64,000 bases of DNA from the human T2T-CHM13v2.0 reference genome, Homo sapiens. The stretch lies in assembly GCF_009914755.1 (NCBI RefSeq), contig NC_060936.1, one strand, 5' to 3'. The translations under genes and the position numbers were made by a program. Positions 8,311 through 57,196 of the stretch are shown one piece after another. Every line of letters begins with the position of its first letter. The stretch's first letter is position 1. The notes below the pieces were generated by a model that was not told where the DNA came from, did not search any database, and was given only the letters and a program-made list of their open reading frames with translations.

Positions 8311-9235
8311 ATGAAGAACCAATCAATGGGGATAGTGTTCACTCTGCTTGGACTGACAAACGACCCCCTACTACAGATTGTGATTTTTTTGTTTCTATTT
8401 TTTAATTATGTCCTGAGCCTGATGGGGAACTTAACCATTATCCTCCTCAGCCTGCTGGATCCATGGCTCAAGACTCCAATGTATTTTTTCCTCCGAAATT
8501 TCTCCTTCTTAGAAATTTCATTCACAACTGTTCGCATTACACGATTCTCGACAAGCATTCTGACTGGAGACAAGACAATTTCCTACGATGCTTGTGCAAT
8601 TCAATTATTCTTCTTTCTTTTATTAGGAGTTACTGAGTTTTACCTCCTGGCTGCCATGTCCTATGACTGCTACATTGCCATCTGCAAACCACTGCATTAT
8701 CCAATCATTATGAGCAGCAAAGCGTGCTACCAACTTGTAATCATCTCTTGGGTAGCTGGATTCGTAATCATCTTTCCCCTTTTGGTCTTGGGACTCAAGC
8801 TGGATTTCTGTGCTTCCAAACTATTGATCACTTCTTATGTGACACTTCTCCTATTCTACAGATTTCTTGCACAGATACAAGTTTCATAGAATTAATGGCT
8901 TTTATCTTAGCTGTGCTGACACTCATCACCACATTGTTGTTAGTGATCCTCTCCTACACATACATCATCAAAACCATTCTAAAATTCCCTTCTGTTCAAC
9001 AACAAACCAAGGCTTTTTCCACTTGTTCTTCACACATGATTGTTGTCTCTATTACTTATGGGAGTTGTATCTTTATGTATATGAAACCATCAGCAAAAGA
9101 AAGGGTGACTTTAACTAAAGGAGTATCTGTACTCAATATCTCTGTTGCCCCTTTACTCAACCCTTTCACACTCTAAGGAACCAGAAGGTGAAAGAAGCTC
9201 TCAAGGACATGCTTCAAAGATTTTGCTATTTTTAA
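8311..9235 (+). pseudogene. OR6C72P: OR6C-subfamily olfactory receptor pseudogene, closest to OR6C6 (likely OR6C72P)
   Basis: MKNQSM start, [11 protein letters not shown] and KAFSTCSSH motifs; DRY changed to DCY; 1-nt deletion near 8820 and 4-nt deletion near 9168 relative to OR6C6; acceptor ttttctgcag at 8280-8289. Symbol inferred from recalled cluster order. Confidence 0.85.
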
Positions 9236-17991: not shown

Positions 17992-18475
17992 TATTTTGTT
18001 TATGTGTTTATGTCCTTTAAACAATGAAAGCTTCTTAAAGGTACCGATTGAATCCTTCACAATGTCTGCAATAACATAGATTACAATAAATATATGGTGA
18101 ATTAGTTATCAAATTACATATGCCAAGTTACATTTATACAAGGCATATTTTATTCAAAGTCGTGGTTTCTGAAAAGTGATATGCCATAAAGAGGTGTTAT
18201 TTAAAAGTTGGATTAAAGAATCGAGGAAAGTGATTGTAGTAGTGTGAAACATTTCATGAGAAAGAATATAATGTAAGAGTGGAACTGAGCTATAAAGTTC
18301 TTCAAGAGACTACCCTATGTGAGATAACTCTTAAGGTGGGAGAACATGATCAAAATAAATGTATAAAACATGTTTTCCAGTTTTTCTTCCTTATCAGTTA
18401 TCAGTTATAGGATAGTCTCTTGAAGAACTTTATGGCTCAGTTCCACTCTAACTTTCTTCGATTCCTTAATCCAAC

Positions 18476-18804
18476 TTTTTTTATATTTATTTTTATTTAT
18501 TTATTTATTTATTTATTTTTTGAGACAGAGTCTCTCTCTTGTCGCCCAAGCTGGTGTGCAGTGGCACCATCTGGGCTCACTGCAACCTCCACCTCCCGAG
18601 TTCAAGCTATTCTCTTGCCTCAGACTCCTGAGTAGCTGGGATTACAGGCACTCTCCACCACGCCCAGCTAATTTTTGTACTTTTAAGTAGAGACGGGGTT
18701 TCACCATGTTGGCCAGGCTGGTCTCGAACTCCTGACCTCAGGTAACCACCCTCCTCAGCCTCCCAAAGTGCTGTGATTACAGGCATGAGCCACCATGCCA
18801 GGCC
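18476..18804 (-). mobile_element. AluS SINE just downstream of the OR6C6 stop codon
   Basis: Antisense dimer with (TTTA)n tail; 14-bp TSD gttttccagttttt at 18372-18385 and 18805-18818, enclosing an extra ~90 bp. Confidence 0.93.
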
Positions 18805-18847
18805 GTTTTCCAGTTTTTATGGTAAAGTTGTAATTTGTAGCAGATTC

Positions 18848-19792
18848 TTAAAATGGTCTTTTAGAAAAACACAAATTCTTTTGTAATACATCCCAGAAGA
18901 CTTCTTTCACCTGCTGGTTTCTGAGAGTATAAATGAAGGGATTTAGTAAAGGGGCAATTGAGGTATAGAGCAAAGCTACACCTTTGGATACAGTCACTCT
19001 TTCTTTTGCAGATGGTTTAATATACATAAAGATACAGCTACCATATGTCATGGAGACAACAATCATGTGGGAAGTACAGGTGGAAAATGCTTTGTTCCTT
19101 TGCTGTGCAGAAGAGAATTTCAGAATGGTCTTAATAATGCAAGTGTAAGAGAGAATCACTAATACCAGTGTGACCACAAGTGTCACCACAGCTAAGGTAA
19201 AAGACATCAATTCTAGGACATGGGTATCTGTGCAGGAGATCTGCAGAATAGGAGAAGTTTCACACATAAAGTGGTCAATAGTTTTGGAAGCACAAAAATC
19301 CAGCTTGAGTCCCATGACCAATGGGGGAAATATGATTAAGAATCCAGTTACCCAAGAGCTAAGTACAAGTTGGTAGCAGACTTTGCTGCTCATAATGATT
19401 GGATAATGCAGTGGTTTGCAGATGGCAACGTAGCGGTCATAGGACATGGCAGCCAGGAGGTAAAACTCAGTAACTCCCGGTAAAAGGATAAAAAATAATT
19501 GAGTTGCACAATTATTATAAGAAATGGTTTTGTCTCTAGTCACAATGGTTATCAAGAATCTAGGAATACACACTGTTGTGAATATTACTTCCAAAAAGGA
19601 GAAATTACGGAGAAAGAAATACATTGGCGTCTTGAGCCGGGGATCCAGCAGGGTGAGGATGATGATGATTAAGTTCCCCATCAGGCTCAAGGTGTAGTTG
19701 AGAAATAGAAACAGGAAAATCACAATTTGCAACTGTGGGTCATCTGTCAATCCTAGGAGAATGAACTCTATTTCCATTGATTTGTTCTTCAT
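18848..19792 (-). CDS. OR6C6: Olfactory receptor 6C6 (class II OR, 7TM GPCR), 314 aa
   Basis: Intact ORF with N-glycosylation site [50 protein letters not shown]; protein recognised. Confidence 0.95.
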
Positions 19793-36396: not shown

Positions 36397-37322
36397 ATGA
36401 GAAACCACACAACGATTACAGAGTTTGTACTCTTGGGCATATCAGACAGCCCAGAGCTTCAGATTGTAATTTTTATCTTTTTATTTATAACTTATGTATT
36501 AAGCATAACTGACAATTTAACCATCATCATCCTTACCTTGACAGACTCTAGTCTAAAGACTCCTATGTATTACTTCCTCCGGAATTTCTCCTTTTCAGAA
36601 ATTACATTCACCAGTGTTTCCATCCCCAAATTTTTGGGGGCAATTATTACTAAGGTCAAGACCATTTCCTATAACAACTGTTTAGCTCAATTATTTTTCT
36701 TCATCTTCATGGGTGCGTCTGAATTTTTTCTTCTAGCTGCAATGTCTTATGATCGTTATGTGGCCATCTGCAAGCCTCTCCACTACACCACCATCATGAA
36801 CAAGAAAATTTGCACCCTGCTTGTCTTTAAGTTCATGGCTGGGAGGATTTCTGACCATTTTTCCACCACTCACGCTTATCCTCAAATTAGATTTTTGTGC
36901 TTCCAATGTCATTGATCACTTCTCCTGTGAGTATTTCCCCATTTTACAACTCTCATGCTCAGACATATGGCTTTTAGAGATTATTGGTTTTTACTTTGCC
37001 TTTGTTACTCTGCTGATCACCTTGGCATTAGTAATTCTGTCCTACGTATGCATCATTTGCACTATTCTGAGAATCCCATGTGCCAGTCAGAGGAACTTAC
37101 TCCTCTCATATGATCGTCATCTCCATCTCTTATGGAAGCTGCATATTCATGTATGTCAAGCCTTCAGCAAAAGAAAGAGCATCATTGACCAACGGAGTAG
37201 CTATTCTGAACACTTCAATTGCCCCCATGCTGAACCCTTCTATTTACACCCTGAGAAACCAGCAAGTAAAACAAGCTTTTAAAGATTTGGCTCACAAAGT
37301 AGTGTTTTATAGAAACAAATGA
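36397..37322 (+). pseudogene. OR6C5P: OR6C-subfamily pseudogene, most similar to OR6C3 (likely OR6C5P)
   Basis: [10 protein letters not shown] start; +1 frameshift near 36829; 14-nt deletion removing KKAFS near 37093; GN changed to DN; three-frame ORF mosaic. Symbol inferred from recalled cluster order. Confidence 0.85.
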
Positions 37323-45159: not shown

Positions 45160-46098
45160 ATGAGAAACCATACAGAAATAACAGAGTTTATTCTTCTGGG
45201 ATTAACAGATGACCCAAATTTTCAGGTTGTAATCTTTGTCTTCCTGCTCATCACCTACATGCTCAGCATCACTGGGAACCTGACCCTTATCACAATTACC
45301 CTGCTGGATTCCCACCTGCAGACCCCCATGTATTTCTTCCTCAGAAATTTCTCCATATTAGAAATTTCGTTCACAACCGTCAGTATACCCAAGTTTCTGG
45401 GTAACATTATTTCAGGAGATAAAACCATTTCCTTTAATAATTGCATAGTTCAGTTATTTTTCTTCATTCTCTTGGGAGTCACAGAGTTTTACCTTCTGGC
45501 TGCCATGTCCTATGACCGCTATGTGGCCATCTGCAAGCCTCTGCATTGCTTGAGTATCATGAATCGAAGAGTCTGCACACTGCTTGTTTTTACTTCTTGG
45601 CTGGTTTCATTCTTAATCATATTCCCAGCACTCATGTTGCTTTTAAAGCTTCATTACTGTAGGTCTAATATTATTGACCATTTTACCTGTGATTATTTTC
45701 CACTGCTGCAACTTGCTTGTTCAGACACAAAATTCTTAGAGGTGATGGGATTTTCTTGTGCTGCGTTTACTCTAATGTTCACTTTGGCATTAATATTTCT
45801 GTCCTACATATACATTATCAGAACAATTTTGAGAATTCCTTCTACTAGTCAGAGGACAAAGGCCTTTTCCACATGTTCTTCCCACATGGTTGTTGTCTCC
45901 ATCTCTTATGGCAGCTGCATTTTTATGTACATTAAACCCTCAGCAAAAGATAGAGTGTCCTTGAGCAAGGGAGTGGCAATACTAAACACCTCAGTAGCCC
46001 CCATGATGAACCCCTTTATTTACAGCCTAAGAAATCAGCAAGTCAAGCAAGCTTTCATTAACATGGCAAGGAAGACTGTATTTTTCACAAGCACATGA
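45160..46098 (+). CDS. OR6C1: Olfactory receptor 6C1, 312 aa
   Basis: Intact ORF with [47 protein letters not shown]; acceptor ctttctcttgtAG at 45126; protein recognised. Confidence 0.95.
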
Positions 46099-56260: not shown

Positions 56261-57196
56261 ATGAACCACACAATGGTCACAGAGTTTGTCCTCCTGGGCC
56301 TTTCTGATGATCCTGACCTTCAGATTGTGATTTTTCTCTTTTTATTTATCACGTATATATTAAGTGTTACTGGAAACCTGACTATCATCACCCTAACCTT
56401 TGTGGACTCCCATCTGCAGACACCTATGTATTTCTTCCTCCGGAACTTCTCTTTCTTAGAAATCTCATTTACAACCGTATGCATCCCCAGATTTCTGGGG
56501 GCAATTATCACCAGGAATAAGACTATTTCCTATAACAACTGTGCAGCCCAACTCTTTTTCTTTATCTTCATGGGGGTGACTGAATTTTACATTTTAACTG
56601 CCATGTCCTATGACCGCTATGTTGCCATCTGCAAGCCCCTTCATTACACATCCATCATGAACAGGAAACTCTGCACTCTACTTGTGCTGTGTGCCTGGCT
56701 AAGTGGGTTTCTGACCATTTTCCCACCCCTTATGCTTCTCCTCCAGCTGGATTACTGTGCTTCCAACGTCATTGATCACTTTGCATGTGACTATTTTCCC
56801 CTCTTACAACTATCTTGTTCAGATACATGGCTCCTAGAAGTAATTGGTTTTTACTTTGCTTTGGTTACTTTGCTGTTCACTTTGGCATTAGTGATTTTAT
56901 CTTACATGTACATTATCAGGACCATTTTGAGAATCCCGTCTGCCAGTCAAAGAAAAAAGGCTTTCTCCACTTGTTCTTCTCACATGATTGTCATTTCCAT
57001 TTCTTATGGAAGCTGTATATTCATGTATGCTAATCCATCTGCAAAAGAAAAGGCATCATTGACAAAAGGAATAGCTATTCTCAATACATCTGTTGCCCCC
57101 ATGCTGAACCCCTTCATTTACACTCTGAGAAACCAGCAAGTAAAACAAGCCTTCAAAAATGTGGTCCACAAAGTTGTGTTTTATGCAAATCAATGA
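56261..57196 (+). CDS. OR6C3: Olfactory receptor 6C3, 311 aa (ORF is open 38 codons further upstream, to 56147)
   Basis: MNHTMVTEF start with NHT glycosylation site; all OR motifs intact; protein recognised. Confidence 0.95.

What the first reader, a model, noticed from the sequence alone, without database searches (positions are those of the whole stretch)
18203..18818. Alu insertion whose TSD also encloses an inverted, internally deleted copy of the neighbouring target DNA
Seen: a perfect 14-bp TSD (gttttccagttttt, 18372-18385 and 18805-18818) brackets the Alu plus ~90 extra bp (18386-18475). That extra DNA is the reverse complement of local upstream sequence: 18452-18475 matches 18207-18230 (2 mismatches in 24), 18407-18449 matches 18276-18318 (2 in 43), and weaker matching continues to ~18336. 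The 44 bp at 18232-18275 are skipped. The template's AAAA (18203-18206) gives the TTTT that runs into the Alu tail. Inference: the nicked 3' end folded back, copied its own strand with one jump, then primed on the Alu poly(A). That would be a germline-fixed templated insertion made before reverse transcription, not a 3' transduction. The structure starts ~30 bp past the OR6C6 stop, so a long 3'UTR could form a hairpin.
Basis: partly seen in the sequence, partly recalled or inferred. Interest (0 to 1): 0.8.

Follow-up and report, generated by a model that had tools for sequence, protein, structure and literature searches.

The report
Alu insertion with fold-back copy of target
An old Alu element just past the OR6C6 olfactory receptor gene carries, inside its insertion scars, about 90 extra bases that are a backwards copy of the neighbouring DNA, probably made when the cut DNA end copied itself before copying the Alu.

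Summary
A full-length Alu lies on the minus strand (body 18522-18804, A-tail 18476-18521). A perfect 14-bp direct repeat flanks it (18372-18385 and 18805-18818). That 14-mer occurs only twice in the window, against 0.10 expected.

The tail-side repeat copy sits 90 bp from the tail. The intervening DNA is an inverted copy of the flank just beyond. Positions 18479-18453 match 18203-18229 (2 mismatches in 27). Positions 18452-18389 match 18273-18336 (9 in 64). Forty-three bases (18230-18272) are skipped at a 2-bp microhomology.

The sequence is single-copy in the whole genome apart from its own inverted copy. This argues against 3' transduction and against a dispersed repeat.

Best reading (about 0.6): one complex target-primed event. 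The endonuclease-cut 3' end snapped back, copied its own strand, ended on TTTT, then primed on the Alu poly(A).

Fold-back inverted duplications at L1 integration sites are already published, but in the passages I read they lie on the other (reciprocal) end. I therefore rate this a new variant of a known kind.

The primate ortholog test could not be run, so a later, independent repair event is not excluded. Interest is moderate.

The parts
18203..18336 (+). Template (left arm). This is original target DNA. Its reverse complement reappears at 18389-18479. The AAAA at 18203-18206 is the last part copied.
18230..18272 (+). 43 bases of the template that are missing from the copy. This is the 'jump', with a 2-bp GT microhomology at both edges.
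   Evidence: sequence
18339..18378 (+). Small inverted repeat already present in the target: a 10-bp stem (18339-18348 with 18369-18378) and a 20-nt loop. It lies at the turn of the fold-back. Its register differs by 8 nt from the long arms.
   Evidence: the fold of the pre-event strand as a whole is not better than shuffles (z -0.25)
18372..18385 (+). Tail-side copy of the 14-bp target site duplication. Its 3' end (TTTTT) is the end left by the first-strand nick (TTTTT/AT).
18386..18388 (+). Three bases (CTT) between the nicked end and the first clearly templated base. Their origin is uncertain: untemplated, miscopied or later mutated.
18389..18452 (+). Inverted copy, block 1, made first. It is the reverse complement of 18273-18336, with 9 mismatches in 64. 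It holds a perfect 7-nt tandem array (18391-18408) that covers both multi-base mismatch clusters.
18453..18479 (+). Inverted copy, block 2. It is the reverse complement of 18203-18229, with 2 mismatches in 27. It ends in TTTT (18476-18479), which merges with the Alu tail.
18476..18521 (-). Alu A-rich tail, now partly an (AAAT)n microsatellite. It carries seven AATAAA motifs on the OR6C6 strand.
18522..18804 (-). Full-length Alu body. I call it S-type from recalled diagnostic positions, not from a library. It is uninterrupted and in the same orientation as OR6C6.
18805..18818 (+). Head-side copy of the 14-bp target site duplication, flush with the first base of the Alu.
18848..19792 (-). OR6C6 coding sequence, an open frame of 314 codons plus stop. 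The stop codon lies 30 bp from the duplication.
   Evidence: hub annotation

Best explanation
**One complex L1-driven Alu insertion.**

1. The L1 endonuclease nicked the + strand at TTTTT/AT, after 18385 in today's numbering.
2. The free 3' end did not anneal to the Alu poly(A) straight away. It folded back on its own strand about 40 nt upstream. There the terminal GTTTTT can pair with GAGAAC (18340-18345), and the target already held a 10-bp inverted repeat.
3. A polymerase extended the end along that strand, first over 18336 to 18273.
4. It then jumped 43 nt at a GT microhomology and copied 18229 to 18203.
5. Copying the AAAA at 18203-18206 gave a new TTTT 3' end. That end annealed to the Alu poly(A), and ordinary target-primed reverse transcription of the whole Alu followed.
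6. The staggered second-strand cut, 14 nt away, gave the normal 14-bp duplication. That duplication therefore encloses both the Alu and the fold-back copy.

**Shown:** the anatomy, the single-copy status, and the canonical nick site and duplication.

**Inferred:**
- the order of events;
- that the template was DNA;
- which polymerase acted. ORF2p itself copies DNA and hairpin primers in vitro, but a host repair polymerase such as Pol theta is equally possible;
- that about 180 nt of the primer strand had become single-stranded, by resection of the other strand or by flap displacement, before cDNA synthesis began.
For: **Flanking features are canonical.**
- The 14-bp repeat is perfect and occurs only at these two places: 2 matches against 0.10 expected.
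- One copy is flush with Alu base 1.
- The nick site TTTTT/AT fits the L1 endonuclease preference TTTT/A. That preference is quoted as TT/AAAA.

**The extra DNA starts exactly at the nick.** It begins at the base after the nicked end, with no tail T's to its left: both repeat copies end in five T's. A process acting on the nicked end predicts this. An unrelated later break would have to hit that one position.

**Polarity fits.** The extra DNA is the reverse complement of the same strand, and its first-made part matches the nearest template.

**The copy ends on T4.** Homology stops at A4/T4, where the Alu tail starts.

**Single copy.** A search of the 3.1-Gb genome with 18150-18475 found only the locus itself and its own inverted copy.

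**Age fits.**
- The Alu differs from a 67-copy majority consensus at 8 of 234 non-CpG sites, 3.4%.
- Arms of the same age should then differ at about 6 of 91 sites.
- Observed: 5 isolated differences plus 2 multi-base clusters, 11 bases in all.

**Biochemistry.** ORF2p uses DNA and RNA templates about equally. It extends 5-nt primers and hairpins, tolerates terminal mismatches, adds untemplated bases and jumps templates (PMC10830420, passages).

**Precedent.** Self-annealing of resected ORF2p-made ends is reported to give inverted duplications with the target duplication kept (bioRxiv 10.1101/2024.12.14.628481 version of 2026-03-04, passages and section 16). Short fold-back inverted duplications are also reported beside somatic L1 insertions, n = 3, 0.3% (PMC10191854, passages).

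**Rarity in a small sample.**
- Of 69 Alus with an intact 3' end and a tail in 264 kb, 2 scored as having an inverted match near the tail.
- Only this one has non-Alu arms that reach the tail.
- The other has an Alu-derived distal arm, and its proximal arm starts 48 nt from the tail.
Against: - No orthologous primate sequence could be examined. That the Alu and the 90 bp arrived together is therefore parsimony, not observation.
- The priming microhomology is imperfect today: 4 Watson-Crick and 2 G-T pairs of 6. Three bases (18386-18388) are unexplained.
- The pre-existing 10-bp stem is in a register 8 nt off from the long arms. The pre-event strand folds no better than shuffles, z -0.25.
- Self-copying needs about 180 nt of the primer strand to be single-stranded before reverse transcription. 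That is not the textbook order of events.
- The published inverted duplications that I could read about lie on the reciprocal end, not the primer end. Their figures and supplements were not visible to me.
- The age comparison is weak. My Alu divergence estimate ranges from 3.4% to 6.6% depending on the ad hoc consensus. With 91 sites it cannot exclude a somewhat younger duplication.
Confidence: 0.6

Rival explanations
1. **Two independent events.** The Alu inserted normally, with its tail against the 14-mer. Later a break or a stalled fork at the tail/duplication junction was repaired with a snap-back templated insertion (Pol theta-type end joining or replicative template switching). That repair copied the flank and rejoined through T/A microhomology in the tail.
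For: - Small inverted duplications unlinked to mobile elements are a common class of human structural variant: 277 events, median 284 bp, mostly with 1-15 bp microhomology (PMC12350158, passages).
- Snap-back templated insertion at breaks is well documented. I saw only the search listing and abstracts of PMC4912351 and PMC11724301.
- The final sequence would look the same.
- The arm divergence does not exclude a somewhat younger origin than the Alu.
Against: - The later break would have to fall exactly at the old nick position. No tail T's lie left of the extra DNA.
- That is one position out of a 46-nt tail, and out of the whole genome for an unlinked event.
- The isolated arm differences (5 in 85 sites outside the clusters) are about what a duplication as old as the Alu predicts.
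Confidence: 0.17
2. **One event, but RNA-templated.** ORF2p first reverse-transcribed a local + strand transcript covering 18203-18345, which was paired to the nicked end. It then switched template to the Alu RNA, giving a chimeric retrocopy.
For: - The geometry is identical to the DNA fold-back.
- ORF2p template switching and chimeric insertions are established.
- One somatic L1 insertion co-inserted part of a pre-mRNA transcribed near the insertion site (PMC10191854, passage).
- No resection of the target would be needed.
Against: - No + strand gene is annotated over this stretch. The hub table places only OR6C6 here, on the minus strand.
- The skipped 43 nt are not an intron. There is no GT...AG, and the stretch is far too short.
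- This needs a rare antisense intergenic transcript in the germline.
Confidence: 0.1
3. **The inverted repeat came first.** An old palindrome already existed, or a dispersed palindromic element such as a MITE, or a nick-associated fold-back without an insertion. The Alu landed beside it later, and the 14-bp repeat is chance or belongs to that earlier event.
For: Long inverted repeats exist for many reasons. The target already holds a 10-bp inverted repeat at the turn.
Against: - The 14-mer is perfect, flush with Alu base 1, and sits on an endonuclease-type site. The chance expectation is 0.10 per 64 kb even when 1 mismatch is allowed.
- The sequences directly beside the tail and beside the Alu head share no duplication of their own.
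- The DNA is not a dispersed element. The whole genome holds only this locus.
Confidence: 0.04
4. **3' transduction.** The 90 bp were carried in from the source Alu's downstream flank.
For: Alu transcripts do run into their 3' flank (general knowledge, recalled).
Against: - The 90 bp match the target's own flank at 88-93% identity.
- Nothing else in the genome matches.
- There is no second A-tail after the extra DNA, only the AAAAA that belongs to the duplication.
Confidence: 0.01

Closest known systems
Inverted duplication of target DNA at L1 integration sites by self-annealing of a resected ORF2p-made end (Mendez-Dorantes et al., bioRxiv 10.1101/2024.12.14.628481, version of 2026-03-04; passages and section 16 read)
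   Same: - An inverted copy of DNA next to the integration site.
- A small hairpin or microhomology at the turn.
- The target site duplication is kept.
- A canonical endonuclease site.
   Different: - Their two inverted duplications are on the reciprocal end (the element's 5' junction). They are somatic or experimental L1 events.
- This one is on the primer (primary RT) end, between the A-tail and the duplication. It must therefore precede reverse transcription.
- It involves an Alu and is fixed in the germline.
- Their single primary-end case is an inversion that includes the L1 insert, so it was made after reverse transcription.
- Their figures and supplements were not visible to me.
'Process C': short fold-back inversion beside somatic L1 insertions (Nam et al. 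2023, PMC10191854; passages read)
   Same: Extra DNA synthesis of similar size (52-220 bp) gives an inverted duplication of flanking DNA. It is rare (n = 3, 0.3%).
   Different: They describe it in the 5' upstream part of the target site. They assign it to the final resolution of the insertion, not to a step before priming.
Snap-back templated insertions in polymerase theta-mediated end joining (PMC4912351 and related papers; search listing and abstracts only)
   Same: A 3' end copies nearby sequence of its own strand in inverted orientation. There are jumps, low fidelity and microhomology at each junction.
   Different: From recall, such insertions are usually a few to a few tens of bases. 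Here about 90 bases were made, and the product went on to prime reverse transcription instead of being joined to the other end.
Twin priming (Ostertag and Kazazian 2001; known to me from citations and from recall)
   Same: A non-canonical use of a second 3' end or template during target-primed reverse transcription, leaving an inversion inside the duplications.
   Different: Twin priming inverts part of the retrotransposed RNA copy. Here the Alu is uninterrupted, and it is target DNA that is inverted and duplicated.
3' transduction and chimeric retrocopies by template switching (Law and Burns 2026, PMC13174262; passages read)
   Same: Extra sequence is enclosed with the element inside one pair of duplications.
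   Different: The extra sequence here derives from the target itself, in inverted orientation. It has no other genomic source.

Membership tests
Canonical L1-mediated (target-primed) Alu insertion | Full-length element with an A-rich tail | tested here: met
   Body 18522-18804, tail 18476-18521
Canonical L1-mediated (target-primed) Alu insertion | Target site duplication of about 7-20 bp at both ends | tested here: met
   Perfect 14 bp; 2 matches against 0.10 expected
Canonical L1-mediated (target-primed) Alu insertion | First-strand nick at a TTTT/A-type site | tested here: met
   TTTTT/AT on the + strand. The consensus is quoted.
Canonical L1-mediated (target-primed) Alu insertion | A-tail directly abuts the 3' duplication copy | tested here: not met
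   The gap is 90 bp. The 4 other window Alus with an exact duplication have gaps of -13 to 6.
Fold-back inverted duplication at an ORF2p-made end | Inverted copy of DNA immediately next to the integration site | tested here: met
   E 2e-16 and 1e-06 within the window
Fold-back inverted duplication at an ORF2p-made end | Target site duplication preserved | tested here: met
Fold-back inverted duplication at an ORF2p-made end | Microhomology or small hairpin at the turn | tested here: inconclusive
   GTTTTT against GAGAAC gives 4 Watson-Crick and 2 G-T pairs. A 10-bp stem lies nearby but 8 nt out of register. Divergence since the event blurs the junction.
Fold-back inverted duplication at an ORF2p-made end | Located on the reciprocal end, as in the published examples | tested here: not met
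   The copy lies between the A-tail and the tail-side duplication, which is the primer end
Fold-back inverted duplication at an ORF2p-made end | Made in the same event as the insertion | not testable with these tools
   No primate genomes are held. Paralogous OR6C genes share only coding sequence. The arm divergence is merely compatible.
3' transduction | Extra DNA derives from the source element's flank elsewhere and is followed by a second A-tail | tested here: not met
   The only genomic match is the local flank. There is no second tail.
Twin priming | Part of the retrotransposed element itself is inverted | tested here: not met
   A single co-linear match over Alu positions 1-283
Palindromic DNA transposon (MITE) | Many dispersed copies with terminal inverted repeats | tested here: not met
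   Single locus in 3.1 Gb. The tool warns that very common words are skipped, but here it did recover the self match and the inverted match.

The most novel reading that the evidence does not exclude
This locus may be a fixed germline record that an L1-endonuclease-made primer end can become single-stranded over about 180 nt and copy itself before any RNA is reverse-transcribed. It would then still capture an Alu RNA through a newly made T-run. If so, second-strand cleavage and resection (or long flap displacement) can precede first-strand cDNA synthesis in the germline. Retrotransposition would then occasionally build long palindromes of unique DNA beside genes. If such events recur, primer-end fold-backs would be an overlooked source of new inverted repeats at Alu and L1 tails, and a genome-wide readout of the order of events in target-primed reverse transcription.
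Probability: 0.35. Interest if true: 0.55.

Novelty: new variant of a known kind. Interest (0 to 1): 0.4.

Why it matters
Fold-back copies of target DNA beside L1 insertions have been seen in cancers, normal colon clones and reporter cells. In the passages I read, they lie on the end that does not prime reverse transcription.

A copy on the priming end that is itself the primer for the Alu says something about order. That end must have been freed and remodelled before cDNA synthesis. A remodelled end that happens to finish in T's can still be used.

The case is old and fixed in the germline, so the process is not confined to tumours or over-expression systems.

It also left a roughly 130-bp-armed imperfect palindrome of unique DNA about 370 to 650 bp downstream of the OR6C6 stop codon (18203-18479). 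As single-stranded DNA it folds at -76 kcal/mol. Such a structure could affect replication stability. If transcripts read through the Alu tail, it could form double-stranded RNA.

One locus proves little. The value lies in defining a signature that can be searched genome-wide.

Tried and rejected
- **Paralog outgroup.** BLAST of both flanks against the window showed that the other OR6C genes share only coding sequence. Homology ends near 18866. No paralog can show the pre-insertion state.
- **Dispersed repeat or transduction source.** The whole-genome search found only the locus itself. Both ideas are rejected.
- **Survey by duplication position.**
  - Window: 11 near-full-length Alus. Five have an exact duplication of 10 nt or more; 4 of these are canonical and 1 is this case.
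  - 200 kb of contig C19: 53 Alus, 15 with a duplication, 14 canonical. The remaining one had a match shorter than 12 nt, and my filter dropped it as likely chance.
- **Survey by inverted repeat anchored at the tail.** This case was the only hit among 12 window Alus. One hit among 57 in C19 was discarded because its distal arm is 86% Alu and its proximal arm starts 48 nt from the tail.
- **Survey limits.** It is far too small to measure a rate near 0.1-0.3%.
- **Hairpin in the skipped 43 nt as a cause of the jump.** Only weak 3-4-bp stems are predicted. Not supported.
- **Splicing as a cause of the skip.** No GT...AG, and the stretch is too short. Rejected.
- **Literature.**
  - A search for 'ORF2p' with 'snap-back' found 0 papers.
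  - Searches found no description of an inverted target copy between an A-tail and its duplication.
  - Subscription journals, figures and bioRxiv supplements were not searchable. I therefore cannot say it is not in print.

Full report
**What is there**

The + strand of 18203-18818 reads, in order:
- unique DNA;
- the 14-mer GTTTTCCAGTTTTT (18372-18385);
- 90 bases of extra DNA (18386-18475);
- a T-rich tract (18476-18521);
- the reverse complement of a full-length Alu (18522-18804);
- the same 14-mer again (18805-18818), followed by ATGG.

The OR6C6 stop codon follows 30 bp further on (18848-18850).

The 14-mer pair is the only direct repeat of its kind found (D3). With one mismatch allowed it still matches only these two places in 64 kb. 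The expected count is 0.10, and none of 100 shuffles gave two matches. The Alu is on the minus strand, the same strand as OR6C6. Its first base touches the right-hand 14-mer.

In Alu orientation the site reads AT/AAAAA. That is a good L1 endonuclease site (consensus TT/AAAA as quoted). So the head end of the insertion is entirely canonical, and the 14-mer is a real target site duplication.

**The extra DNA**

It is an inverted copy of the flank that lies just beyond the tail-side duplication.
- One search reports arms of 76 nt (82%) and 42 nt (81%).
- BLAST within the window gives E 2e-16 and 1e-06.
- A gapped alignment resolves two co-linear blocks. Positions 18203-18229 align with 18479-18453 (2 mismatches in 27). 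Positions 18273-18336 align with 18452-18389 (9 in 64).
- Between the blocks, 43 template bases (18230-18272) are skipped, with GT at both edges.
- The weak inner part is still real: 17 of 24 matches in a fixed register, P about 8e-6.
- Homology ends exactly at AAAA (18203-18206) against TTTT (18476-18479), where the Alu tail begins.

**What it is not**

- A search of the 3.1-Gb assembly with 18150-18475 returned only the locus and its own inverted copy. The DNA is therefore not a dispersed palindromic element. It was also not brought in from another locus as a 3' transduction, and no second A-tail follows it.
- The Alu aligns to other Alus as one uninterrupted match over positions 1-283, so this is not twin priming.
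- The sequences directly beside the tail and beside the Alu head share no duplication of their own. The Alu therefore did not simply land next to an older palindrome.

**Geometry and mechanism**

In target-primed reverse transcription the primer is the 3' end of the nicked strand. Here that is the + strand ending ...CCAGTTTTT at 18385. Whatever is attached directly to that end was made first. The extra DNA is attached there, and the Alu cDNA follows it.

The extra DNA is the reverse complement of the same + strand. Its first-made part matches the nearest template (about 18336) and its last-made part matches the farthest (18203). That is the signature of a 3' end that snapped back on its own strand and was extended.

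At the turn, the terminal GTTTTT can pair with GAGAAC (18340-18345) by 4 Watson-Crick and 2 G-T pairs. The target also already holds a 10-bp inverted repeat there (18339-18348 with 18369-18378). That stem is 8 nt out of register with the long arms, and the pre-event strand as a whole folds no better than shuffles (z -0.25). Three bases (18386-18388) are of uncertain origin.

Copying stopped, or the product was captured, when the template's A4 had given a T4 3' end. That is what an Alu poly(A) needs for priming.

I therefore read the locus as one complex insertion event. The steps are: nick, fold-back DNA-templated extension with one 43-nt jump, priming on the Alu tail, and then a normal finish with a 14-nt staggered second cut.

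**Which enzyme**

This is not decidable from sequence.
- Purified ORF2p copies DNA and RNA templates about equally. It extends 5-nt primers and hairpins, tolerates terminal mismatches, adds untemplated bases and jumps templates (PMC10830420, passages). It could have done every step.
- A host repair polymerase acting on a resected end, of the Pol theta snap-back type, is equally compatible (abstracts only).

Self-copying requires that about 180 nt of the primer strand were single-stranded. That implies resection of the opposite strand, and hence second-strand cleavage before cDNA synthesis, or a long displaced flap. This is the most interesting implication, and it is an inference.

**Fidelity clue**

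The arms differ at 11 bases.
- Five are isolated: 4 transitions and 1 transversion.
- The other six form two clusters (right-arm positions 18403-18406 and 18394-18395).
- Both clusters lie inside a perfect 7-nt tandem array (period 7, 2.6 copies, 18391-18408). The array exists only in the new arm and leaves length and register unchanged.

This looks like slippage or short jumps during synthesis rather than later point mutation. Without an outgroup it stays unexplained.

**Timing**

Against a majority consensus of 67 Alu copies (window plus 200 kb of C19), this Alu differs at 8 of 234 non-CpG sites (3.4%) and at 14 of 40 CpG columns. A cruder 13-copy consensus gave 17 of 257, 6.6%.

Arms as old as the Alu should then differ at roughly 6 of 91 sites, or up to about 12 with the cruder estimate. 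Observed are 5 isolated differences, 7 events, or 11 bases. This is compatible with a common origin. It argues against a recent duplication but cannot exclude a moderately younger one. The S-type assignment rests on recalled diagnostic positions, not on a library.

**Rivals**

- *A later, independent snap-back repair or replicative template switch at the tail.* It would give the same sequence, and small inverted duplications are common human variants (277 events, PMC12350158). But the break would have had to fall exactly at the old nick, because no tail T's lie to the left of the extra DNA. I give this about 0.17.
- *A local + strand RNA as template instead of the DNA strand.* It has the same geometry, and a single somatic precedent exists in which nearby pre-mRNA was co-inserted (PMC10191854). 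I give it about 0.1. No + strand gene is annotated here, and the skipped stretch is not an intron.
- *An older palindrome with a chance duplication, or 3' transduction.* Together below 0.05.

**Comparison with what is known**

Nam et al. [quoted passage not shown] They involve 52-220 bp of extra synthesis, assigned to the final resolution step.

The 2026 version of Mendez-Dorantes et al. proposes that resected ORF2p-made ends self-anneal and prime synthesis. [quoted passage not shown]

The present case works like these but differs in four ways. It is on the priming end, it must precede reverse transcription, it involves an Alu, and it is germline-fixed.

I found no description of that arrangement. 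Figures, bioRxiv supplements and subscription journals were out of reach. I therefore claim only that I did not find it.

**How rare**

The small survey covered 264 kb.
- Of 64 near-full-length Alus, 20 had an exact duplication of 10 nt or more.
- Of those 20, 18 were canonical, one was this case, and one had a short match that my filter dropped.
- Of 69 Alus with an intact 3' end and tail, only this one has unique-DNA arms folding back from the tail.
- The survey could not be extended. It is too small to estimate a rate.

**The gene**

The annotated OR6C6 transcript ends at 18548, inside the Alu. Seven AATAAA motifs in the Alu tail precede the arms, and the next one is at 18154, beyond the whole palindrome.

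If transcripts read through, the arms would form a very stable RNA hairpin (-127.9 kcal/mol, z -17.2). As single-stranded DNA the fold is -76.3 kcal/mol, z -15.5. Whether such transcripts exist was not testable here.

**Verdict**

- The kind of event is already described in outline, and this is a new variant of it.
- Interest is moderate, at 0.4.

Noticed in passing
window 18391-18408: A perfect 7-nt tandem array (2.6 copies) exists only in the new arm. It covers both multi-base mismatch clusters between the arms, and length and register are unchanged. This suggests slippage during the fold-back synthesis.
   Followed up: partly
window 18339-18378: The target itself holds a 10-bp inverted repeat with a 20-nt loop exactly at the turn of the fold-back. 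It overlaps the left 7 bases of the 14-bp duplication and is 8 nt out of register with the long arms.
   Followed up: partly
window 18154 and 18491-18517 (minus strand): Seven AATAAA motifs have arisen in the Alu tail microsatellite on the OR6C6 strand. The next AATAAA lies at 18154, beyond the palindrome, and may have been the gene's poly(A) signal before the insertion. The annotated transcript end (18548) fits neither.
   Followed up: no
window 18866-19100 against 9008-9197, 56950-57182, 45856-46046, 37104-37275: The OR6C paralogs in the window share 74-82% identity with OR6C6 only within the coding region. Their 3' flanks are unrelated.
   Followed up: no
L003-L022 joined (C19 40.0-40.2 Mb), position about 185832: An Alu is followed by an inverted repeat (score 93). 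Its distal arm is 86% Alu sequence, so this is an ordinary inverted Alu pair and not a fold-back of unique DNA.
   Followed up: partly
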